From Escherichia phage P1723, in the sequence record MT465573: a stretch of 40,282 bases of DNA. One strand, given 5' to 3'. Below the pieces are notes generated by a model. It was not told the DNA's origin, made no database searches, and worked only from the letters and a program-made list of their open reading frames with translations. The position numbers and the translations under genes were made by a program. Below, piece after piece: positions 1 to 40,282 of this stretch; position 1 is the first letter of the stretch; the number at the start of each line of letters is the position of its first letter.

Positions 1-301
1 TCTGTTGGACATCATAAGGTCATCACTCAATGTCACCTCAGGTCATCACCTTTGGTCGGTGCCCGTCCTTTGGTTTACTCTCAGTAGCGCTGTGACGCTT
101 ATCAGAGACCGTCAGTCTCATGGCTTATGGTTTGCTATCAGTTTATCAGAGAGGTGATTAGCTAGGCTCTCAGGGCTTATTGGTCGCATCTTTTGATGTG
201 ATGCTGGTGCTACTGGTCAGATTGTTAAAGAGCGGTCTATCTGTGGTACGCTTATAAGGTAACTTAAAGAGACCTACGAGTCAATAGCTATTATCACGGC
301 C

Positions 302-934: not shown

Positions 935-1082
935 AACAAGCAACGTGATGACCGACACTGAAAGGGTCTAGGTGATTCCCTCTGGATGAACCGAATGTTC
1001 TTTAACAATTTGGATATCAACACTCATGAGAACGATAGCGACAATAGCGATTAACTCATGGTCACTGATACTACCGCGAGAC

Positions 1083-1123
1083 GGGCTCAAGATGAGCGTA
1101 CAGTGTGCCATTATGATAATCAC
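1083..1123 (+). promoter_or_regulatory. Putative RNase III processing site (R0.3-like) upstream of gene 0.3
   Basis: GGCTCAAGATGAGCG...GTGTGCCATTATGATAATCACT resembles the CTCAAGG...GCCTTTATGAT motif of T7 RNase III sites; TCTTTAACAAT element just upstream as in T7. Confidence 0.4.
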
Positions 1124-1149
1124 TAGCTAACCAACGAATGGAGAACATC

Positions 1150-1602
1150 ATGATTTACACGAACGAACCAGCTAACAAATTCTATGTACTGGTCTCAGCA
1201 GCTCGAGCTAACCTGTCAGACATCGTGAACATGGGTCGTCAGTTAGACCTTAAGGCGCTCTTACAGGCCGAGCCGGAATACTATGGTGTCCTTGAATGTA
1301 CGGGTCTCACTGGCTGTTATCGTGAAGAGGGGCAGGCTGAAGCGTCCACCGAGCGCACTTACCGTGTACTGTGTGACAACAAGGCGCAAGCTATCAACGT
1401 GGCACGTTTGGCCTGTAATGACTTTGAGCAAGACTGTGTGATGGTCTATAAGTCACAGACTCACACCGCTGGTCTACTGTTCTGCAAGGGTCTGGAGGGG
1501 TACAAGGCGACTCGACTGAATGGCTCCTTCCAGCAAGTGGATGCACCTGAGGGTGAGTGCTACACAATGGATGCTGAAGGTCGTATCTGGGAGGTAATCT
1601 AA
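1150..1602 (+). CDS. 0.3: S-adenosylmethionine lyase (T3-type SAMase, anti-restriction), gene 0.3
   Basis: Translation MIYTNEPANKFYVLVSA...CYREE...KAQAINVARLACNDFEQDCVMVYKSQTHTAGL closely resembles T3 gp0.3 SAMase; GGAGAA RBS before the ATG at 1150 (tool ORF starts at 1138). Confidence 0.88.
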   Translation: MIYTNEPANKFYVLVSAARANLSDIVNMGRQLDLKALLQAEPEYYGVLECTGLTGCYREEGQAEASTERTYRVLCDNKAQAINVARLACNDFEQDCVMVYKSQTHTAGLLFCKGLEGYKATRLNGSFQQVDAPEGECYTMDAEGRIWEVI

Positions 1603-1764: not shown

Positions 1765-1897
1765 AACGCTACGGTATCCACGTTCCGGGCTGGTGTTACT
1801 CAATGACACTTACTGTTAAACTCACAGGTGGTTACTGATAGGATAACGAGAGCGTCACAGGTGGGCGCTCAAAGATAACCTAATGGAGACCTAGCGA

Positions 1898-2497: not shown

Positions 2498-3652
2498 ATG
2501 AACCCAATGAACGCAGCACATCACGTAGTCCCTACCGTGTATCAAGCACTTGAGTACCGAATGAAAGCACTGAAAGCGCTACCTATCGACCGACTCGATG
2601 AACGCCAACCGGGTCTCGTGGGTATTCTTGCTGACCTTGTAAACTACGAGACTGATTGCGGCTGTGGCGTGGACGATACCGAGTTCGTTAACTCACAGGA
2701 CTGGTGGGGTTCGCTGGTGGCGATGGCTCGCGAGCTGGGATATACGTTCCTAGGGAATGGATTCTTCAGTGCAGTATTCAGCCACGTAAGTCTGCCGGGT
2801 CGCGTCATTAAGGTGGGCTTTAAGAAAGAAGACTCAGGCGCTGCGTACGCTGCATTCTGCCGAGCTAATCCGGGTCTACAAGGGCTGCCAGTAATCCATG
2901 CGATTGCACGACATGAGGCCTGTTACACGGTCGTTCTGGACCACCTTAAGCCATACAGCGCAAAGTCACCTGAAGTCCTCGACCAGTACAACATCGTGAA
3001 GACTCAGATTCTGAATCGTGATAATGACGCATGGGACTTCTGCGAGGCATACGATGAGGTCACTCAGGGTCTACAGGGGACCGCAGCGCACATCCGCGAG
3101 TTCTTCTATGGGGTGGCTGGCTTCGACATGCATGAAGGTAACGTGATGCTGGACCATAACGACAACATCGTCATCACTGACCCGGTGAGCTACACAAACG
3201 GTCTCGGTGAGCCGGATGACTTCAGGGTAGACTTTGAGGCGCTACTTGAGGAAATCCAAGCGATGAAACTTGAGGAAGCTATTGAGAAGTGGCAACAACG
3301 TCACCTCCGTAAGTTGAACAAGCTGGAGAACCGAAAGGCACATCGCCGCCATAAGATTCAACTGGCTAAGATTAGAGCCGAGCGTGAAGAACGCCAAGCG
3401 AAAGCCAATATGGTTCGCAAGGATGATGACCGAGCGTGGGAACTGGTGGTAGGAATTAAGCCGGACGCTAAGTACATCTGTGGTCGCGGTGTGAAGTGGG
3501 CAATCCCTGAGGGTCTTAAGATTCACCACAGGAACGGCATCCGGGTCATCCATGAGAAGAACGTGGAGCGCCACAACCGAATGGTAGAGCAAATCAATAT
3601 GGGCAGACCGCTTGATATTGATAAGCGTCTTGACGCAATGTTTATGGGCTGA
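2498..3652 (+). CDS. 0.7: Serine/threonine protein kinase / host shutoff, gene 0.7
   Basis: 384 aa; conserved blocks KALPI..L.ERQ, NGFFSAVFSH, VIKVGFKKEDSGAAY, FDMHEGNVM, ITDPVS match T7 gp0.7. Confidence 0.9.
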   Translation: MNPMNAAHHVVPTVYQALEYRMKALKALPIDRLDERQPGLVGILADLVNYETDCGCGVDDTEFVNSQDWWGSLVAMARELGYTFLGNGFFSAVFSHVSLPGRVIKVGFKKEDSGAAYAAFCRANPGLQGLPVIHAIARHEACYTVVLDHLKPYSAKSPEVLDQYNIVKTQILNRDNDAWDFCEAYDEVTQGLQGTAAHIREFFYGVAGFDMHEGNVMLDHNDNIVITDPVSYTNGLGEPDDFRVDFEALLEEIQAMKLEEAIEKWQQRHLRKLNKLENRKAHRRHKIQLAKIRAEREERQAKANMVRKDDDRAWELVVGIKPDAKYICGRGVKWAIPEGLKIHHRNGIRVIHEKNVERHNRMVEQINMGRPLDIDKRLDAMFMG

Positions 3653-3654
3653 TA

Positions 3655-3705
3655 GTCTACACTTCAAGAGGTCGCCAAGTGGTGGCCTCTGAGAGTGAAG
3701 ATTCT
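3655..3705 (+). promoter_or_regulatory. RNase III site R1-like hairpin between 0.7 and gene 1
   Basis: TGATAGTCTACACTTCAAGAGGTCGCCAAGTGGTGGCCTCTGAGAGTGAAG; same TGATAG + CAAG..GGTC...GGTGGCC architecture as T7 R1. Confidence 0.5.
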
Positions 3706-3723
3706 TAAACAAGCGAGGCAATA

Positions 3724-6372: not shown

Positions 6373-6416
6373 CAGCGTCGGTTAATACCTAAGGCCTTGA
6401 ATCTTCAGGGTCTTAT

Positions 6417-6439
6417 CATTAACCCACACTATAGGGAAC
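6417..6439 (+). promoter_or_regulatory. Phage RNAP promoter (phi1.05-like), ATTAACCCACACTATAGGGAAC
   Basis: Exact match to the -16..+1 core consensus; +1 G at 6434. Confidence 0.7.
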
Positions 6440-6815: not shown

Positions 6816-6838
6816 TATTAACCCACACTATAGGGAGA
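6816..6838 (+). promoter_or_regulatory. Phage RNAP promoter (phi1.1-like), ATTAACCCACACTATAGGGAGA
   Basis: Consensus match, +1 G at 6833, directly upstream of gene 1.1. Confidence 0.75.
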
Positions 6839-6877
6839 CAATCCGATCTCCCTTTCGAATACTTTAAGGAATACACT

Positions 6878-8332: not shown

Positions 8333-8336
8333 GGCG

Positions 8337-8380
8337 CTAAAAGGTCTACCTTAACGGGTGGGCCTTTTGTCGTTTCTACA
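8337..8380 (+). terminator. Putative intrinsic terminator after ligase (TE-like)
   Basis: Imperfect GC-rich hairpin AAAAGGTCTACC..GGGTGGGCCTTTT followed by TTTTGTCGTTTCT; position matches T7 early terminator TE. Confidence 0.4.
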
Positions 8381-8397
8381 ACTTAAGGATTTACATT

Positions 8398-11800: not shown

Positions 11801-11817
11801 TTCTATAGGAGGACTCT

Positions 11818-13646
<1,829 letters not shown>

Positions 13647-13722: not shown

Positions 13723-13745
13723 CATTAACCCACACCATAGGGAAC
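13723..13745 (+). promoter_or_regulatory. Phage RNAP promoter (phi4.3-like), variant ATTAACCCACACCATAGGGAAC
   Basis: C instead of T at -4; otherwise consensus; +1 at 13740. Confidence 0.6.
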
Positions 13746-14064: not shown

Positions 14065-14343
14065 ATGTCTAAATCATCCCAGACCCTGCACCTGTCCGAT
14101 ACGGTTGACCACTTCAATCGTCGCATCCACGTTAACGTCCGTAATGGTAAGGTCACTATGGTCTACCGCTGGAAGGACCGTACGTCACCGAAAATGCACA
14201 CTCAACGTACCACGTTGGATGACACTCAGGCGGCCCGTCTGTTAGGTCTCCTGACCAAGCAGGTACAGAAAGCAATCCCAGAACGTGATGAAGCGCGTAC
14301 CAAAGCGTTTACCGCTGCGTATCTGGACGAGCTGAGAAGCTGA
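14065..14343 (+). CDS. Hypothetical protein (gene 4.5 position, 92 aa)
   Basis: ATG with TAAGGAGA RBS; assignment by position only. Confidence 0.6.
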   Translation: MSKSSQTLHLSDTVDHFNRRIHVNVRNGKVTMVYRWKDRTSPKMHTQRTTLDDTQAARLLGLLTKQVQKAIPERDEARTKAFTAAYLDELRS

Positions 14344-14350
14344 TAGGTAA

Positions 14351-14386
14351 ACTCAAGGTCATCGAAAGGTGGCCTTTATGATTATC
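14351..14386 (+). promoter_or_regulatory. RNase III site R4.7-like hairpin
   Basis: TGATAGGTAAACTCAAGGTCATCGAAAGGTGGCCTTTATGATTATC; near-identical motif recurs at 37283. Confidence 0.5.
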
Positions 14387-14411
14387 TATTAATTACAAAG
14401 GAGTACAAATT

Positions 14412-19063: not shown

Positions 19064-19083
19064 CTGATTATAGGGTCTTTGTG

Positions 19084-19106
19084 TATTAACCCACACTATA
19101 GGGAGA
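19084..19106 (+). promoter_or_regulatory. Phage RNAP promoter (phi6.5-like)
   Basis: TATTAACCCACACTATAGGGAGAG, +1 G at 19101. Confidence 0.8.
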
Positions 19107-19193
19107 GTACACTTAAAGACCCTATTGTAAGCTACTTAAAGTTCTATTTAAGAGTTTATGATTATGTATTACCAATAACTTAAGGAGGACTTT

Positions 19194-27056: not shown

Positions 27057-27079
27057 CAATAGGATCTCCTTGTGGTGTG

Positions 27080-27102
27080 CATTAACCCACACTATAGGGA
27101 GA
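27080..27102 (+). promoter_or_regulatory. Phage RNAP promoter (phi13-like)
   Basis: GTGCATTAACCCACACTATAGGGAGAGAC, +1 at 27097. Confidence 0.8.
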
Positions 27103-27128
27103 GACCTAATTCATAAGAGGATTACATT

Positions 27129-27536
27129 ATGTTCATTAGGAATACTGTAAGTAATGACTTTGAGTTATTCACTCCGTCACACCATGATATTATGGAAGCT
27201 AAGGCTGCTGGACATGAACCAGCTTTCCCGGATGCTACTGAATGTGTGACCTTAGACCTCTCTGGGTTCCCGCTTGCTATCGGTGGAAACTGTGGAGACC
27301 AAGTGTGGTTCGTTACGTCCGACCAAGTGTGGAGACTTAACAGACAACATAAGGTAGAGTTCTTTAAGTGTATCGTCGAATACCGTGATAGGATGCTTGC
27401 CAGCTATCCAGTTCTCTGGAACTACGTTTGGATAGGCAACAAGTCTCACATCCGGTTCCTTAAGGCTATCGGCGCTGTATTCGAAGACACATTTACAGCC
27501 GATGGTCAATTCCAACTGTTCACCATAAGGAGGTAG
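27129..27536 (+). CDS. 13: Internal virion protein A, gene 13
   Basis: 135 aa in the gp13 position after the phi13 promoter. Confidence 0.8.
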   Translation: MFIRNTVSNDFELFTPSHHDIMEAKAAGHEPAFPDATECVTLDLSGFPLAIGGNCGDQVWFVTSDQVWRLNRQHKVEFFKCIVEYRDRMLASYPVLWNYVWIGNKSHIRFLKAIGAVFEDTFTADGQFQLFTIRR

Positions 27537-33500: not shown

Positions 33501-34486
33501 ACTACCTGCTTAGCGCTGCACGTCAGGGTCTCATTGGGAACCTTATTGAACACGCTGCGACGGGTAAGTCCTCCAAGTGGCTCAATGAGAACTTCCTGAA
33601 GTCTGCCAGCATCACGCCTGAGCAGTCCAAGGGTATCATTCAGTTCCTCAAAGACCACGCCAAGGTGGACGCTAACGGTAAGTGGACCTTCCCAGACCAA
33701 CACGCGATGAGCCTTGACCCTCGGGCTATGGACTTGTGGCGGATGGCTGATAAGGTTGCAGATGAGACCATGCTCCGACCATCCAAGATTAATGCACAGA
33801 ACGTTAAACAGTTAGGCCCGATTGTTGGCGCTGCGTTGCAGTTCAAAACGTTCGTCATTAAGTCCCTCAATGGTAAGACACTACGTACTTACTATCAGGC
33901 CACTCGCGATGGTCGTGCGATGGACGCTGCATTGTCCACAGGTATCTCCGGGATGCTTGCTGGTTCGTTCTACGTGATGCAGTCCCACATGAAAGCTGCT
34001 GGTCTCCCTGAGAACCAACGTGAGGCTTATCTCTTCAAGGCCTTAACGCCTGAGATGGTTGCCTACGCTGCGGCCTCCCGAAGCTCTATCACTGGTGCGC
34101 CGTTAGGTGTTGCAGATATGCTTCTGGGGCCAATTGGACTGACTCCAAGCCAGTACATGCGTACCACTATCAGTCCTAAGGATGCACCACAGCGAGACCC
34201 TAACAAGGCTTCCTCTGGTCGTTCCGGTACGGCTGAGCTGATGGGTGCTATTGGTCAACAGTTCCCTGTGGCTAACTACGTTGGCTCTACGGTGTCTCTC
34301 GGTCAGAACCTCTGGAACCTCGGAGGTGCCAATGGCCCTCGCGACTCCACGGAGTTCACTACAGGTGTCTATCAGAATATGAAGGAAGTTCTCCCGAACG
34401 ACCCGATTACTCAGAGACTACTTCTGGGTGCTTTCGAAGAGCACATCTACACAACCGAGCGACCTAAGCGTTCAGAGCGCTGGTAA
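30524..34486 (+). CDS. 16: Internal virion protein D with N-terminal lytic transglycosylase domain, gene 16
   Basis: 1320 aa; N-terminus GVSYDLLR...ES.FN..AKS.TGP.G.MQ.T is the transglycosylase motif region of T7 gp16; later segments (FGNPKAI, ILTGRARR, MDLWR.ADKVADE.MLRP) align with T7 gp16. Confidence 0.95.
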   Translation: MAKYDKTIPNQYDGLIRQAADANGVSYDLLRHLTFNESSFNANAKSPTGPKGIMQMTAGTGRAMGLNVFKEDNPADDRYNPEKAIPAAAKLLAGFVKKSNGDELRAALMYNVGEGPTGMPQIEAYDKQDYGSIGDEGRLYIRKLVGSAKSLRSEAIEKFGDFAKGIFEVEAPASKVTRGAPGPETASVNMDTSNLKYDQLNERTAANTWAVQNDQPEENYKPQGADKGLFYKTGDVAKVEVQNSALATMADAALGDNGYDVWSATITPSKWNSYTFTPDDIQKIRESGLRAEYAQSVLGSNAETLDEMIKLAKERQDRQDSVADAGMGAHLVGALAGAAVDPVSYIPIAGAASKGISLGRRMVTVGTQAGALNVASEVLRVGVGGGHADYMMAAGGGLLFGAGLTGVLHRANPREAESVLAATARAESRDAAMRGLPDNSAVSTEGLDFKTSPNGSQYATLDSGEVVLPDGQVLSTSNPLNPNSASQFASVDPEVTKGSMGVRMGSMTDISLHLSRSADDEVRGVAYDLLRSTTGYVKGGSGKSGTVASDVAERLHYTDTSDLTAIEQFTRDAIKDPEWTMGANRGDALARETVVRRAVEAQEDGIGVSKLTKGESKLRDEIFRFTTSKEDAMSNPAMFGNPKAIPVMNKTKLSGKYFPVAYVPEKVAAFRNVFGNSVEDAQGAMQRHFLADYASNPNTKSVVDEMVAAKNGLDSPAAVTPEMVEKWANDKAFGIVNGEFTTNLALDDIASASNSMNLGKNNFLESRHGFSMGFKSQLPDGQMFSLNDLRSFDANKLLRNYARRTNGDIAIHSTGQTTQDLLDKITAIRERAKSDPSGKLKQDANALEDTVKLLTGRARRDPNGAVDMAMGVLKDLSFVAKNAYMGLLNLTEIGGMIAKGNVRALFHGIPVVRDMMRSTKAVSGTDLQKLEYGLMGREVDNMIRPQRADLIQSLRDNSGMGSFGANALGSLKFGTQEIAAAWPMSKLLQGTTNYLLSAARQGLIGNLIEHAATGKSSKWLNENFLKSASITPEQSKGIIQFLKDHAKVDANGKWTFPDQHAMSLDPRAMDLWRMADKVADETMLRPSKINAQNVKQLGPIVGAALQFKTFVIKSLNGKTLRTYYQATRDGRAMDAALSTGISGMLAGSFYVMQSHMKAAGLPENQREAYLFKALTPEMVAYAAASRSSITGAPLGVADMLLGPIGLTPSQYMRTTISPKDAPQRDPNKASSGRSGTAELMGAIGQQFPVANYVGSTVSLGQNLWNLGGANGPRDSTEFTTGVYQNMKEVLPNDPITQRLLLGAFEEHIYTTERPKRSERW

Positions 34487-34487
34487 T

Positions 34488-34510
34488 CATTAACCCACAC
34501 TATAGGGAGA
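34488..34510 (+). promoter_or_regulatory. Phage RNAP promoter (phi17-like), copy 1
   Basis: TCATTAACCCACACTATAGGGAGAGG, +1 at 34505. Confidence 0.8.
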
Positions 34511-34550
34511 GGCAATCACGTCCTCCCTCTAGTTTTCATAAGGAGGCCAC

Positions 34551-34793
34551 ATGGCAAACGTCATTAAGACAGTTTATACGTACCCATTAGATGGCACCAC
34601 GACTGACTTTGCGATTCCCTTTGAGTACCTGTCACGTAAGTTCGTGGTGGTAACGCTCATTGGTCAAGACCGTAAAGAGCTGGTTGTTGTGACCGATTAT
34701 CGCTTCGCTACCCGCAACCTTATCTCTACGACTAAGGCATGGGGACCAGCCGATAACTATCAACAGATTGAGCTACACAACCGAGCGACCTAA
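34551..34793 (+). CDS. Truncated duplicate of the tail fiber N-terminus (gp17 residues 1-74 plus 6 aa), created by the tandem duplication
   Basis: Identical to the first 74 codons of gene 17, then runs through the duplication junction into LHNRAT and a TAA; has its own promoter and AAGGAGG RBS. Confidence 0.6.
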   Translation: MANVIKTVYTYPLDGTTTDFAIPFEYLSRKFVVVTLIGQDRKELVVVTDYRFATRNLISTTKAWGPADNYQQIELHNRAT

Positions 34794-34813
34794 GCGTTCA
34801 GAGCGCTGGTAAT

Positions 34814-34836
34814 CATTAACCCACACTATAGGGAGA
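34814..34836 (+). promoter_or_regulatory. Phage RNAP promoter (phi17-like), copy 2
   Basis: Identical to copy 1; +1 at 34831. Confidence 0.8.
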
Positions 34837-34876
34837 GGCAATCACGTCCTCCCTCTAGTTTTCATAAGGAGGCCAC

Positions 34877-36754
34877 ATGGCAAACGTCATTAAGACAGTT
34901 TATACGTACCCATTAGATGGCACCACGACTGACTTTGCGATTCCCTTTGAGTACCTGTCACGTAAGTTCGTGGTGGTAACGCTCATTGGTCAAGACCGTA
35001 AAGAGCTGGTTGTTGTGACCGATTATCGCTTCGCTACCCGCAACCTTATCTCTACGACTAAGGCATGGGGACCAGCCGATAACTATCAACAGATTGAGAT
35101 TCGTCGATACACTTCTGCAAGTGAACGTCTGGTTGACTTCAGTGATGGTTCCATCCTGCGAGCTACCGACCTTAACGTATCTCAGATTCAGACCCTGCAC
35201 GTTGCTGAAGAAGCGCGAGACCTGACCGCTGATACCATTGGCGTTAACAACGATGGCAACCTTGATGGTCGTGGTCGTCGTATCGTTAACGTGGCAGATG
35301 GTGTGGACGCTGGTGACGTTGTTACCGTAGGCCAGATGAACCGTTGGTCTGGTAGTGCTGCCGACAGCGCCAATAAAGCCAAGGTGTCCGAGACCAACGC
35401 CAAGACCTCTGAGACAAACTCAAAGGCTTCCGAGCTGTTAGCCCAGAAGTGGGCTGAGAACCCTAAAGGAACACCTGTGGTCTCCAGTCAGTATTCCGCT
35501 AAGCATTGGGCGTTGACCTCTGAGGATAGCGCTAATGCGTCTGCAACCTCTGCGGGTAACTCTCAGGCACAAGTAGCGAACGCTAAGACACAGGCTGACC
35601 GTGCTGGTGGTTACGCCAATGACGCTATGGGTTACCGCGATGCAGCCAACACGTCTGCTCAACAGGCCGCTGTATCTGAGGGCAACGCTGCGACATCTGC
35701 AAGTAACGCAAAGACTGAATCCGATAAGCTAATTCAGTTTAACACTCTGGTTGACCGGATTAACGGAGTGGCTGTACGTCAGGTTGGTGAGTTTGAGGTC
35801 CACAACTCTCGTACTTACGCTAAGCCGGGTACAGTGTATGGGGATGGTCAACTGCTGAACCGCAACCAGTTCCCTGCACTAGTAGCTGAGTTACTGGCAG
35901 GACACCTCCCGGTTGTCTCTGACTCCGAATGGCTGGCTGACCCCGGTAAACGTGGTTGCTATACCCTAGGTAACGGTACGACCACTTTCCGTGTACCAGA
36001 CCTCAACGGTGTCTATGCGGGTTCCATTAAGGCTCCTGTGTTCCGTGGTGACGCTGGGTTTACTGTAGGTGATGTTCAGAAGTCAGCTCTACCAAACATT
36101 GAGGGTCTGATTGCACTTGCCGATAATGAGCTGGCCTCCAGTGCCTCTGGTGCATTCTACAACGCTGGGCGCTCCAACAAAGGTGCAACTAACGATACCG
36201 GCGGTGCTCAGTTAGGTTTCGACGCGTCACTGTGGAACGAAATCTACAAGAAGGACACCAACGAAGCCCGAATGAACTCCGTGGTAATCGTATGGGTCAT
36301 CCGTACTCACGGGGTGGTGAACAATCCGGGTTCTGTAGATGCCGCTGTGTTGTCTTCTCGTGTCGAGCAGGTTTATACCGAACTGCTTACACGTATGGTT
36401 GCTAATGAGAACCTCCAGAAGTCTGGACAGAAGTTCCTTCGCCGAGTGTTTAGCGACCGCACGTCTCAGGGGCAACTTTCGACTGGAAGAACAGTGACTT
36501 GCTCTGAGGATATTCTCAACAAGATGCTAGTAATTGGCGCACACACCGATAGCCAAAACCCAAACTCTCAGATATATCGTTGTAGCCCGTTCCTCCAGCC
36601 GAACACTGCTGACCGAATGCACCTCACTCTATCTAACTGGTCGTACACCTTAGAGTTCCCTGCGGCGAATCAAGTTAAACTAGTAGCGGCTACAGGTTCT
36701 GGAGTACAGGCAATCAACTATATTGACGTAGTGTGCGACTACCCACAAACGTAA
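34877..36754 (+). CDS. 17: Tail fiber protein, gene 17 (T7-like N-terminal domain, divergent distal region)
   Basis: 625 aa; residues 1-150 (MANVIKTV..FEYL.RKFVVVTLIG.DRK...DYRFATR...KAWGPAD, GSILRA.DLNV.QIQT.HVAEEARDLT.DTIGVNNDG.LD.RGRRIVN) match T7 gp17; distal part differs and contains a tail-collar-like motif. Confidence 0.95.
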   Translation: MANVIKTVYTYPLDGTTTDFAIPFEYLSRKFVVVTLIGQDRKELVVVTDYRFATRNLISTTKAWGPADNYQQIEIRRYTSASERLVDFSDGSILRATDLNVSQIQTLHVAEEARDLTADTIGVNNDGNLDGRGRRIVNVADGVDAGDVVTVGQMNRWSGSAADSANKAKVSETNAKTSETNSKASELLAQKWAENPKGTPVVSSQYSAKHWALTSEDSANASATSAGNSQAQVANAKTQADRAGGYANDAMGYRDAANTSAQQAAVSEGNAATSASNAKTESDKLIQFNTLVDRINGVAVRQVGEFEVHNSRTYAKPGTVYGDGQLLNRNQFPALVAELLAGHLPVVSDSEWLADPGKRGCYTLGNGTTTFRVPDLNGVYAGSIKAPVFRGDAGFTVGDVQKSALPNIEGLIALADNELASSASGAFYNAGRSNKGATNDTGGAQLGFDASLWNEIYKKDTNEARMNSVVIVWVIRTHGVVNNPGSVDAAVLSSRVEQVYTELLTRMVANENLQKSGQKFLRRVFSDRTSQGQLSTGRTVTCSEDILNKMLVIGAHTDSQNPNSQIYRCSPFLQPNTADRMHLTLSNWSYTLEFPAANQVKLVAATGSGVQAINYIDVVCDYPQT

Positions 36755-37010: not shown

Positions 37011-37275
37011 ACCTGATGCAACCCTTATGTCTCTCCTTGAGATGCTGGACACCAACATGGCACAGCAGATGCTGATGGACCTACAGAACCCTGAGCGTAG
37101 AACCCCTCAGCTCTATAACGCCATAGGTAAACTGCTGGAGCGCCATAAGTTCCAGATTGCTAAGCTGAAACCTGATGCAAACATCCTTGGTGGACTGGCT
37201 GGAGCACTTGGCGACTATAACGCTCAGGTAGGCTCCGATGGTCTAACCGAAGACGAGCGACCAACGCTCAACTGA
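37003..37275 (+). CDS. 18: Terminase small subunit, gene 18
   Basis: 90 aa, position and size of T7 gp18; ATGA-type overlap with the holin gene. Confidence 0.85.
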   Translation: MSKPDATLMSLLEMLDTNMAQQMLMDLQNPERRTPQLYNAIGKLLERHKFQIAKLKPDANILGGLAGALGDYNAQVGSDGLTEDERPTLN

Positions 37276-37282
37276 TAGGCAT

Positions 37283-37316
37283 ACTCAAGGTCACTACATG
37301 TGGTGGCCTTTATGAA
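37283..37316 (+). promoter_or_regulatory. RNase III site R18.5-like hairpin
   Basis: TGATAGGCATACTCAAGGTCACTACATGTGGTGGCCTTTATGAA; shares TGATAGG..ACTCAAGGTC...GGTGGCCTTTATGA with 14351. Confidence 0.5.
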
Positions 37317-37373
37317 TGCTTAACACAACTGTAGGCGTTCCTACGTGAAATCTGATAAAAGACGGGAGGCATT

Positions 37374-39573: not shown

Positions 39574-39676
39574 TACCTTAAGTCACATTGAGTGCTTATG
39601 CACTAATAGTGAATACTTATGGAGGTACACATGGAAGTGGCCTCTATAAGAAATTCCTTATGAATCAATAGGTTTG

Positions 39677-39699: not shown

Positions 39700-40092
39700 G
39701 GGTACTCAAAGACTACCTTAAGTTATCATTATAGTTATTCACCATAAGTATTCATTCAAGACCATTATGACCATTAACAGATTACTTAGAGTGTCCTTAT
39801 GAGAGGGTGGATATTATTATTATAATCACCCTATCCTAAAGATACTTAGAGGCACCTAGCTATCCTATAGTTATATCCTAAAGAGGTAAACGCTACGGTG
39901 TACTCAAATGGGTCTATAGGTGTTCCTGATATGATGATACACACTATCACATCACTCACACCTGACCACCTAAACGTTAACCACCCAAGGGTCTCTCATG
40001 GTCTCTTGTGGTCTACCTTTGGTTAGGCCGTACCCTTTGGTGATACCTTTGGAGGTCCCTTTAAGAATCCTACAGAAAAATCTGAGTGACTA

Positions 40093-40282
40093 TCTCAAAG
40101 ATACAACTCCCAAAGTTCCCCCATAGCCCTCTTTAAGTTCACCTTCGGTGGCCCTTCCCCTTTGGTTACTCTTTAAGTGACACCTTTGGTGGTTCGTTTG
40201 GTTCTCCTGAGGCGGTGTTGAGACCCTTTGGTGAGACATTAGGGAGACCATTTGGTGACATTTGGTTATGCCTCAGTCCCTA
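40093..40282. repeat. Putative terminal-repeat / genome-end region with CCTTTGGT-type short repeats
   Basis: TCTCAAAGATACAACTCCCAAAGTTCCCCCATAGCCCTCTTTAAG resembles the T3/T7 left-end sequence; CCTTTGGT/CCCTTTAAG repeats continue across the window end into positions 1-80. Confidence 0.35.

What the first reader, a model, noticed from the sequence alone, without database searches (positions are those of the whole stretch)
14351..14386. Recurrent TGATAG-ACTCAAGGTC...GGTGGCCTTTATGA hairpin motif (RNase III sites)
Near-identical elements follow the stop codons at 14341-14386 and 37272-37316, with a related element at 3651-3705 and a weaker one at 1083-1123. Position and sequence parallel the T7 R4.7, R18.5, R1 and R0.3 RNase III processing sites. 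The stop TGATAG forms part of the conserved 5' arm.
Basis: partly seen in the sequence, partly recalled or inferred. Interest (0 to 1): 0.4.

Follow-up and report, generated by a model that had tools for sequence, protein, structure and literature searches.

The report
T7-type RNase III processing hairpins
These repeated hairpins between genes are this T7-like phage's copies of the well-known sites where the host enzyme RNase III cuts long phage transcripts into stable messages; the finding is correct but ordinary.

Summary
The window is a complete T7-like genome (closest relative Escherichia phage SRT7, genus Foetvirus). Near-identical elements sit at 14342-14390 and 37273-37325, and a related one at 3650-3707. 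Each folds into a lower stem, internal loop and upper stem, and each starts at the upstream gene's TGATAG stop. They are positional and sequence orthologs of T7/T3 sites R4.7, R18.5 and R1. A covariance model trained only on T7 and window copies recovers 9 of T3's 10 curated RNase III stem-loops. It also finds a copy right after gene 18 in 74 of 80 related phages. Both stems covary (96.8% of cells paired against 74.7% in shuffles; 14 of 18 pairs change on both sides). The loop sequences ACUC and UUAU|GA hardly vary. The true R0.3-like element is 1045-1125, with a 33-nt apical insert, and a compensatory change against SRT7 supports that pairing. The family is larger than reported: there are probable R0.5-like (1830-1891), R6.5-like and R13-like hairpins, and one specific to this lineage after gene 1 (6380-6424). 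Cleavage itself is inferred, not shown. Verdict: new members of a known kind, low interest.

The parts
14342..14390 (+). R4.7-type RNase III processing hairpin (the element in the finding). Lower stem GAUAGGUAA/UUAUCUAUU, internal loop ACUC / UAUGA, 9-bp upper stem AAGGUCAUC/GGUGGCCUU, GAAA tetraloop. The gp4.5-like stop TGA (14341-14343) plus TAG lie in the 5' arm. Predicted scissile bond after U14379 (UUUAU|GA).
   Evidence: dG -22.7, z -5.3; 68.5 bits. Identical in SRT7.
37273..37325 (+). R18.5-type RNase III processing hairpin between gene 18 (small terminase, stop 37273-37275) and gene 18.5. 10-bp upper stem, CAUG loop. Predicted scissile bond after U37313.
   Evidence: z -2.8; 67.9 bits; same position in 74 of 80 gp18-anchored loci.
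3650..3707 (+). R1-type hairpin between the 0.7 kinase stop (3650-3652, TGATAG) and RNA polymerase gene 1 (start 3724). 10-bp upper stem AGAGGUCGCC/GGUGGCCUCU, 2x2 internal loop, two-part lower stem. Cleavage expected near 3691-3693, by analogy with T7 R1.
   Evidence: dG -30.1, z -4.4; 13.9 bits, local; hairpin at this position in most of the distinct RNAP-anchored upstream sequences, with different stem sequences; the only difference from SRT7 is in the loop.
1045..1125 (+). R0.3-type hairpin upstream of gene 0.3 (SAM hydrolase, start 1150). Lower stem GAUUA/UAAUC, internal loop ACUC / UUAUGA, 10-bp upper stem with one bulge (1058-1067 with 1101-1111), and a 33-nt branched apical insert (1068-1100). 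Predicted scissile bond after U1114.
   Evidence: dG -25.9, z -2.9; 40 bits, E 2e-8, full-length; U1062.G1107 here is G-C in SRT7.
1830..1891 (+). Probable R0.5-type hairpin. It starts at CTGATAGG, the stop of a 25-codon ORF (1761-1838). 7-bp upper stem GAGCGUC/GGCGCUC and an interrupted lower stem. The sequence has diverged from the core motif.
   Evidence: (dG -20.1, z -2.5). Not detected by the family model at E<=10, so support is weaker. The only difference from SRT7 falls on an unpaired base.
6380..6424 (+). Candidate processing hairpin specific to this lineage, directly after the RNA polymerase stop (6372). Lower stem GGUUAAU/AUUAACC, 11-bp upper stem UAAGGCCUUGA/UCAGGGUCUUA. The 3' lower arm is the upstream half of the first class II phage promoter (6418), so the hairpin exists only in read-through early transcripts.
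   Evidence: dG -23.2, z -5.8; present only in the window and SRT7; identical in SRT7. Not detected by the family model.
19070..19126 (+). R6.5-like hairpin that encloses the phage promoter ahead of gene 6.5, an arrangement analogous to T7/T3 R6.5.
   Evidence: T3 R6.5 encloses phi6.5; T7 R6.5 carries the promoter in its apical loop. Not detected by the model in the window.
27060..27108 (+). R13-like hairpin in which sequence upstream pairs with the phi13 promoter, the same design as T7 27235-27279 and T3 R13.
   Evidence: (dG -27.3, z -5.8; the T7 equivalent folds alike).
2498..3652 (+). Gene 0.7 protein kinase homolog. In T7 this kinase phosphorylates host RNase III and stimulates it. It is an accessory to the system.
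   Evidence: 37% identity to T7 gp0.7, E 2e-70. Function taken from PMC4858673.

Best explanation
These are RNase III processing signals of the T7/T3 type. They are transcribed as part of long polycistronic plus-strand RNAs, made by host RNA polymerase for the sites left of about 8 kb and by the phage polymerase for the rest. Each element folds into a hairpin of about 20 bp in which an upper and a lower stem are separated by a conserved internal loop (5' ACUC, 3' UUAUGA). Host RNase III binds the helix. Because of the internal loop it cuts only one strand, at UUUAU|GA on the 3' side, which is predicted to fall after window positions 14379, 37313 and 1114, and near 3692. The upstream message (gp4.5, gp18, 0.7, or the leader) keeps the hairpin at its 3' end, which protects it from 3'-to-5' exonucleases. 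The downstream message (4.7/DNA polymerase, 18.5/19, RNA polymerase, 0.3) gets a new, short 5' leader. The upstream gene's stop codon lies in the 5' lower arm, so no spacer is needed between genes. The phage's 0.7 kinase probably stimulates RNase III as it does in T7. Shown here: the sequence family, the fold, covariation, strand specificity, and conservation of position. Inferred: the cleavage itself, the exact bond, and the effects on stability and translation.
For: (1) Motif recurrence is far beyond chance.
(2) The T7-type fold of lower stem, internal loop and upper stem appears at each site, with z -2.8 to -5.3. T7's own sites fold the same way.
(3) The sites are positional orthologs of T7/T3 sites.
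(4) A covariance model built only from T7 and window copies recovers 9 of the 10 curated T3 'RNase III recognition site' stem-loops. It also recovers T7 R6.5, R1.3, R1 and R3.8, which were not in the training set.
(5) A full-length hit starts at the end of gene 18 in 74 of 80 protein-anchored loci, and one lies upstream of the DNA polymerase gene in 5 of 5.
(6) Covariation: 96.8% of cells are paired against 74.7% in shuffles, 14 of 18 pairs change on both sides, and slid controls give 38-50%. The loop sequences are nearly invariant.
(7) The structure needs G.U pairs. The reverse complement folds at -7.3 against -22.7 kcal/mol at 14.35 kb, -11.7 against -19.7 at 37.3 kb, and -16.7 against -30.1 at R1. 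Minus-strand model hits are near noise.
(8) The proximal and middle boxes (C.U, A-U, A-U, G-C, G-C, U.G, C-G, A-U) are identical to those of T7 R1.1, the standard substrate (box definitions from PMC1540722).
(9) The window and SRT7 differ by a compensatory U.G to G-C change in the R0.3-like stem.
(10) Literature: T7 has ten RNase III sites, five of them in the early transcript. An internal loop restricts cleavage to one phosphodiester and leaves a protective 3' hairpin. The 0.7 kinase stimulates RNase III.
Against: There is no experimental evidence for this phage or its genus: no RNA ends have been mapped. The 14.35 kb upper stem is 9 bp plus the C.U pair, one pair shorter than R1.1. Its distal box is U.G/C-G rather than the optimal UA/UG. 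In the minimal uR1.1 substrate, removing one base pair lowers reactivity 50-fold. However, T7 R0.3 has the same stem length and the same apical pairs. The R0.5-like, post-gene-1, R6.5-like and R13-like hairpins are not detected by the family model. They rest on shape and position only, and shape alone is not specific: about 70 hairpins of this shape occur per genome. The exact T7 cleavage coordinates (890, 1468, 3138, 5887, 13892, 36856) come from my memory of the Dunn & Studier 1983 annotation, not from a tool output. They do all fall on the same U of the aligned UAU|GA motif.
Confidence: 0.9

Rival explanations
1. The hairpins are transcription terminators or pause sites, for host or phage RNA polymerase, that end the upstream transcription unit.
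For: They are stable GC-containing hairpins just after stop codons, followed by UUUAU. The genuine early terminator TE at 8333-8385 shares the AAGGUC..GGCCUUU core and scores weakly with the model (11.4 bits).
Against: The terminator scan flags neither hairpin, because neither has a run of T. Essential downstream genes (DNA polymerase, terminase large subunit) have no promoter of their own between the hairpin and their start. The nearest phage promoters are at 13724 and 34815, so transcription must read through. The conserved lower stem and internal loop play no part in intrinsic termination. The T7 homologs are not terminators (annotation).
Confidence: 0.03
2. The repeats act at the DNA level, for example as cruciforms, recombination hot spots at module boundaries, or remnants of a small mobile repeat. 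The RNA fold would then be incidental.
For: The same roughly 50-bp sequence recurs at several gene boundaries within one genome and across 279 phage records. The best matches are often to paralogous positions, which suggests duplication or spread of a cassette.
Against: A DNA palindrome would fold equally well on both strands. Here the sense strand folds 8-15 kcal/mol better, because many pairs are G.U. The stems covary while keeping their pairing, and the unpaired loop bases are the most conserved part. That pattern points to selection on an RNA that a protein recognises, not on a DNA repeat. All copies lie on the transcribed strand.
Confidence: 0.03
3. The hairpins are mainly stabilisers or translational regulators that work without RNase III. 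They would be 3'-protective stem-loops at ends made by other nucleases, or structures that tune initiation of the downstream gene.
For: T7 grows without RNase III, so the hairpins could have functions that do not depend on cleavage. The hairpins end 10-50 nt ahead of the next Shine-Dalgarno sequence.
Against: The Shine-Dalgarno sequences are not inside the stems. The near-invariant ACUC/UUAUGA loop and the R1.1-identical proximal box are the features known to direct RNase III. A generic stabiliser would not need to conserve them. This rival is largely compatible with the main explanation, since the protective hairpin is the product of the cut.
Confidence: 0.04

Closest known systems
Bacteriophage T7 RNase III sites R0.3, R0.5, R1, R1.1, R4.7, R18.5 (Dunn & Studier 1983; R1.1 is the standard E. 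coli RNase III substrate)
   Same: Same core sequence (ACUCAAGGYC...GRCCUUUAUGA). Same architecture of lower stem, asymmetric internal loop and upper stem. Same proximal and middle box as R1.1. Same intercistronic positions (4.5/4.7, 18/18.5, 0.7/1, upstream of 0.3). A stop codon lies in the 5' arm (T7 R0.5 gTGATAG, R1 cTGATAG, R18.5 gTGATAT). The 0.7 kinase is present.
   Different: No phi4.7 promoter follows the R4.7-type site. The R0.3-type site carries a 33-nt branched apical insert. There are no R1.3 or R3.8 equivalents, and no canonical R1.1 after the phi1.1-like promoter. An extra hairpin sits between gene 1 and the first class II promoter. Cleavage has not been tested here.
Bacteriophage T3 'RNase III recognition site' stem-loops (AJ318471 annotation)
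   Same: Ten annotated stem-loops. R4.7 and R18.5 overlap the last codons of genes 4.5 and 18, as here. R6.5 and R13 enclose promoters, like the window's 19070-19126 and 27060-27108. The window also shares T3's SAM hydrolase gene 0.3 and a gene 1.05-type layout.
   Different: T3 lacks gene 4.7, so its R4.7 directly precedes gene 5. T3's R0.3 has no apical insert. T3 has canonical R1.1, R1.3 and R3.8 sites that the window lacks.
Other bacterial and phage RNase III substrates (rRNA 30S precursor stems, lambda N leader and sib)
   Same: About two turns of dsRNA recognised by the same host enzyme. Proximal and distal box rules apply.
   Different: Many of those are fully paired helices cut on both strands. 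The T7-type sites have an internal loop that gives a single cut and leaves a 3' hairpin. There is no sequence homology.

Membership tests
T7-group (Studiervirinae) RNase III processing signals | Irregular hairpin of about two helical turns: an upper and a lower stem separated by an internal loop | tested here: met
   At 14342-14390 there are 9+1+9 bp with a 4/5-nt loop; at 37273-37325, 9+1+10 bp; at 3650-3707, 13+10 bp with a 2x2 loop; 1045-1125 has the same design with an apical insert. The T7 controls fold identically.
T7-group (Studiervirinae) RNase III processing signals | Sequence homology to mapped T7 sites, including the loop that holds the scissile bond (CCUUUAU|GA) | tested here: met
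   Alignments A1 and A2. Model scores are 68.5 and 67.9 bits (these two are training members), 40 bits for 1043-1128 and 13.9 bits for the R1 core. The R0.5-like and post-gene-1 hairpins do NOT reach E<=10.
T7-group (Studiervirinae) RNase III processing signals | Intercistronic position on the transcribed strand, orthologous to known R sites | tested here: met
   Flanking genes match T7 4.5/4.7, 18/18.5, 0.7/1 and T3 0.3. The position is conserved in 74 of 80 and 5 of 5 protein-anchored loci. There are no convincing minus-strand hits.
T7-group (Studiervirinae) RNase III processing signals | Structure maintained by selection (compensatory changes in the stems) | tested here: met
   96.8% paired, 14 of 18 pairs changed on both sides, 0 of 500 shuffles reach the observed values, and slid controls give 38-50%. 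Caveat: the alignment is fitted to the model and mixes paralogs with orthologs. Independent support comes from the U.G to G-C change against SRT7 and from individually folded R1 orthologs.
T7-group (Studiervirinae) RNase III processing signals | Proximal, middle and distal box base pairs compatible with E. coli RNase III binding and catalysis | tested here: inconclusive
   The proximal and middle boxes are identical to R1.1 at 14.35 and 37.3 kb (rules from PMC1540722). The distal box is not the optimal UA/UG: it is U.G/C-G at 14.35 kb and C-G/U.G at 37.3 kb. T7 R0.3 and R18.5 show the same kind of deviation. I recall both as mapped, cleaved T7 sites (Dunn & Studier 1983); the paper behind one search also lists R18.5 among the strong cleavage sites.
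T7-group (Studiervirinae) RNase III processing signals | Site-specific cleavage by host RNase III in vivo or in vitro | not testable with these tools
   No transcript-end data exist for this phage. No paper in the searched library describes these sites for SRT7 or Foetvirus.
Intrinsic (rho-independent) terminators | GC-rich hairpin immediately followed by a run of U | tested here: not met
   The terminator scan flags neither hairpin. The tail is UUUAUGA.
Any curated Rfam family | Score at or above a family's gathering threshold | tested here: not met
   No hit in the whole window. None of the 4227 families in the library matched these sites.

The most novel reading that the evidence does not exclude
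Two features of this lineage might be more than ordinary variants. First, the hairpin at 6380-6424 uses the upstream half of the first class II phage promoter as its 3' arm. RNase III processing of the early (host-polymerase) transcript would then define the 3' end of the RNA polymerase mRNA inside a promoter. This would replace the canonical R1.1 site, which this phage lacks. Second, the R0.3-type site has a branched 33-nt insert at its apex, which would make it a three-way-junction RNase III substrate. If both are really cleaved, the Foetvirus lineage has rewired where its early transcript is cut.
Probability: 0.3. Interest if true: 0.3.

Novelty: new member of a known kind. Interest (0 to 1): 0.15.

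Why it matters
The main value is for annotation. The SRT7/Foetvirus record lists only CDSs, and in most of the listed hits among the 279 phage records that carry the element nothing is annotated under the match. Marking these sites gives the transcript map of the phage: where messages end, and which genes share an mRNA. That is useful for engineering T7-like phages and for modelling their gene expression. The covariance model built here recovers the family well, and no Rfam family matches these sites at gathering threshold. Biologically, the result adds no new principle.

Tried and rejected
(1) A shape-only scan (lower stem >=5 bp, internal loop, upper stem >=8 bp) gave about 70 hits per genome in both T7 and the window, mostly inside genes. 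It is not specific and I dropped it as evidence.
(2) An Rfam search at gathering thresholds found nothing.
This led to the corrected arms.
(4) The RefSeq and EMBL T7 records in the collection do not show RNase III features, so the curated T3 record served as the annotated standard instead.
(5) A MAFFT plus RNAalifold run on R1 orthologs recovered only 6 pairs, because the alignment misplaces one subgroup. The individually folded sequences are clearer.
(6) The DNA-polymerase-anchored search returned only 5 loci, so ortholog statistics for R4.7 are thin.
(7) The terminator reading and the DNA-palindrome reading were both rejected.
(8) A literature search for SRT7 found no description of these sites. 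I could not find the exact T7 cleavage coordinates in any accessible paper.

Full report
WHAT THE WINDOW IS. The 40,282-base window is a complete or nearly complete genome of a T7-like podophage. Its closest relative in the phage collection is Escherichia phage SRT7 (genus Foetvirus, Studiervirinae), at 97.8% identity over a 3-kb test stretch. All long ORFs lie on the plus strand in T7 gene order. Thirteen copies of a phage promoter, ATTAACCCACACTATAGGGAGA, are spread along it. Three sigma-70-type early promoters lie at the left end.

CHECKING THE OBSERVATION. The 20-mer TGATAGNNNNACTCAAGGTC occurs exactly at 14341 and 37273 and nowhere else. Even with three mismatches allowed, chance expects 0.29 matches. 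GGTGGCCTTTATGA is exact at 14368 and 37302, and has a three-mismatch copy at 3681. ORFs end at 14343, 37275 and 3652, so in all three cases TGA is the stop codon and TAG follows it in frame. As RNA, the three elements fold into the same shape: a lower stem of 9-13 bp, an internal loop, an upper stem of 9-10 bp, and a tetraloop. Their energies lie well below those of shuffled sequence (z -5.3, -2.8 and -4.4). The G of the TGA is the first paired base of the lower stem at 14342.

THE FOURTH SITE IS MISPLACED. The true 5' arm lies further left. GATTAACTCATGGTCACTG (1049-1067) pairs with CAGTGTGCCATTATGATAATC (1101-1121). This gives the family's lower stem, the ACUC/UUAUGA internal loop and a 10-bp upper stem, with a 33-nt branched insert at the apex (dG -25.9, z -2.9). 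The family model scores 1043-1128 at 40 bits (E 2e-8) once the insert is allowed. The window and SRT7 differ at only a few bases here. Two of those differences turn the U1062.G1107 pair into G-C, which is a compensatory change in exactly the proposed pairing. T7 and T3 R6.5, which carry a whole promoter in the apical loop, show that apical inserts are tolerated in this family.

WHAT THE ELEMENTS ARE. The T7 sequences between genes 4.5/4.7, 18/18.5 and 0.7/1 and upstream of 0.3 carry the same core and fold in the same way. T7 R0.5 and R1.1 are also close matches. T7 R0.5 reads gTGATAGACTCAAGGTCGC...GTGGCCTTTATGATTATCAc, so the TGATAG 5' arm is an old feature of the family and not a peculiarity of this phage. 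The window's flanking genes are orthologs of T7 gp4.5 (62% identity), gp4.7 (37%) and gp0.7 (37%, E 2e-70), and of T3 gp0.3 (60%). The curated T3 record annotates ten 'RNase III recognition site' stem-loops. Its R4.7 and R18.5 overlap the last codons of genes 4.5 and 18, as in the window.

THE COVARIANCE MODEL. I built a model from seven copies (window R4.7 and R18.5; T7 R0.3, R0.5, R1.1, R4.7 and R18.5) with an 18-bp structure. On T3, which it had never seen, nine of the ten curated sites appear among its plus-strand hits: eight as the top eight, at 64.8 down to 16.5 bits, and R3.8 at 11.2 bits. Only R13 is missed. On T7 it finds the untrained sites R6.5 (34.6-48.9 bits), R1.3, R1 and R3.8. 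Minus-strand hits are at noise level.

CONSERVATION AND COVARIATION. I collected loci by protein similarity to gp18, not by the RNA motif. In 74 of 80 such loci a full-length hit starts at the end of the gp18 match. All five loci anchored on the DNA polymerase have a hit at the R4.7 position. Across 37 distinct sequences, 96.8% of cells form standard pairs, against 74.7% after shuffling. Fourteen of the 18 pairs show changes on both sides. Sliding the partners by 1-3 columns drops pairing to 38-50%. That alignment is fitted to the model and mixes paralogs with orthologs, so the numbers lean towards the structure, but the margin is large. The unpaired loop sequences ACUCAAGG and CCUUUAUGR are almost invariant while the stems change. 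A stop codon lies in the 5' arm in nearly every lineage. At the R1 position, most of the distinct upstream sequences from the RNA-polymerase-anchored loci fold into a two-stem hairpin at the same place, with different stem sequences. A plain MAFFT plus RNAalifold run recovers only the core of the upper stem there.

RNA OR DNA, AND WHICH STRAND. Many of the pairs are G.U. Accordingly, the reverse complement folds poorly: -7.3 against -22.7 kcal/mol at 14.35 kb, -11.7 against -19.7 at 37.3 kb, and -16.7 against -30.1 at R1. This argues for a structure in the sense transcript, and against a DNA cruciform or an antisense RNA. Neither hairpin has the U-run of an intrinsic terminator. The DNA polymerase and large terminase genes downstream have no promoter of their own after the hairpins, so transcription must pass through.

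MECHANISM. From the literature, T7's early precursor of about 7,000 nt is cut co-transcriptionally by host RNase III at five sites, and the later transcripts at more sites, ten in all. RNase III is not essential but improves translation of several messages. The 0.7 kinase phosphorylates RNase III and raises its turnover. R1.1 RNA is cut at a single phosphodiester (PMC4858673; PMC6938266). Internal loops limit cleavage to one bond and leave a 3' hairpin that protects against 3'-to-5' exonucleases (PMC1540722). That paper defines a 4-bp proximal box, a 2-bp middle box and a 2-bp distal box within an 11-bp helix. Both near-identical window elements have exactly R1.1's pairs from the cleavage site inward (C.U, A-U, A-U, G-C, G-C, U.G, C-G, A-U). 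They differ only near the apex. The 14.35 kb stem has the same length and apical pairs as T7 R0.3. By alignment with T7, the scissile bonds should follow U14379, U37313 and U1114, and lie near 3692. The T7 cleavage coordinates behind this (890, 1468, 3138, 5887, 13892, 36856) come from my memory of the Dunn & Studier annotation. I could not find them in an accessible record or paper, but five of the six (all but R1 at 3138) fall on the same U of the aligned UAU|GA. The cleavage itself, and its consequences, are inferred by homology.

THE FAMILY IS LARGER THAN REPORTED. Four more hairpins have this design. The hairpin at 1830-1891 begins at CTGATAGG, the stop of a 25-codon ORF, and occupies the R0.5 position. 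The hairpin at 6380-6424 follows the RNA polymerase stop and uses the upstream half of the first class II promoter as its 3' arm. Among the RNAP-anchored loci it is present only in the window and SRT7. The hairpins at 19070-19126 and 27060-27108 enclose the promoters ahead of genes 6.5 and 13, as T7/T3 R6.5 and R13 do. None of these four is detected by the sequence-based model, and shape alone is not specific (about 70 such hairpins per genome), so they are candidates only. Four of the eight plus-strand TGATAG hexamers in the window are stops that lead into such hairpins. Compared with T7 and T3, the window lacks R1.3 and R3.8 equivalents, a canonical R1.1, and a phi4.7 promoter.

VERDICT. The elements are orthologs of some of the best-studied RNA processing signals in molecular biology, in a phage whose record annotates only CDSs. 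No paper in the searched library describes them for SRT7. This is a new member of a known kind. Its value is mainly for annotation, and the interest is low.

Noticed in passing
window 34447-35098: A perfect 326-bp tandem duplication (34447-34772 = 34773-35098). It covers the phi17 promoter, the 5' leader and about the first 74 codons of tail-fibre gene 17, and creates a truncated 80-codon ORF (34551-34793) ahead of the full gene (34877-36754). SRT7 has a single copy. It could be a real duplication or an assembly artefact.
   Followed up: partly
window 6380-6424: A strong hairpin (z -5.8) between the RNA polymerase stop and the first class II promoter. Its 3' arm is the promoter's upstream half. 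Among the RNAP-anchored relatives it occurs only in this phage and SRT7, and T7 and T3 have no counterpart.
   Followed up: partly
window 14391-14411: No phage promoter follows the R4.7-type hairpin, whereas T7 has phi4.7 immediately after R4.7. The nearest upstream phage promoter is at 13724.
   Followed up: yes
window 6836-6877, 7247, 11801-11876: There are no equivalents of T7/T3 R1.3 and R3.8. After the phi1.1-like promoter (6817) there is only a short GGGAGAC...UCUCCC 5' hairpin instead of a canonical R1.1 site.
   Followed up: partly
window 39615-39651: A stable hairpin (z -4.3) after terminase gene 19 that contains GTGGCCTCTATAAG, a 3-mismatch relative of the family's 3' arm. The region shares no 14-mer seed with SRT7.
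   Followed up: no
window 1150-1602 and promoters: Gene 0.3 is a T3-type SAM hydrolase (60% identity to T3), not a T7 Ocr. The promoter consensus ATTAACCCACACTATAGGGAGA is intermediate between those of T3 and T7.
   Followed up: partly
window 1-300 and 39980-40282: The two ends of the window share no exact terminal direct repeat of more than 50 bp, although T7-like genomes normally have one. The record is probably trimmed or starts elsewhere.
   Followed up: partly
window 8333-8385: The early terminator TE homolog shares the AAGGUC...GGCCUUU core with the RNase III family and scores weakly with the family model (11.4 bits). This may reflect common ancestry.
   Followed up: no
L097 (IMGVR_UViG_3300009034_000458), around 60-170 and 2810-2900: The sequence flanking a T7 gene 1 copy has GGATCC sites and non-phage DNA on both sides. 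It looks like a DE3-type T7 RNA polymerase expression cassette that has been catalogued as a viral contig.
   Followed up: no
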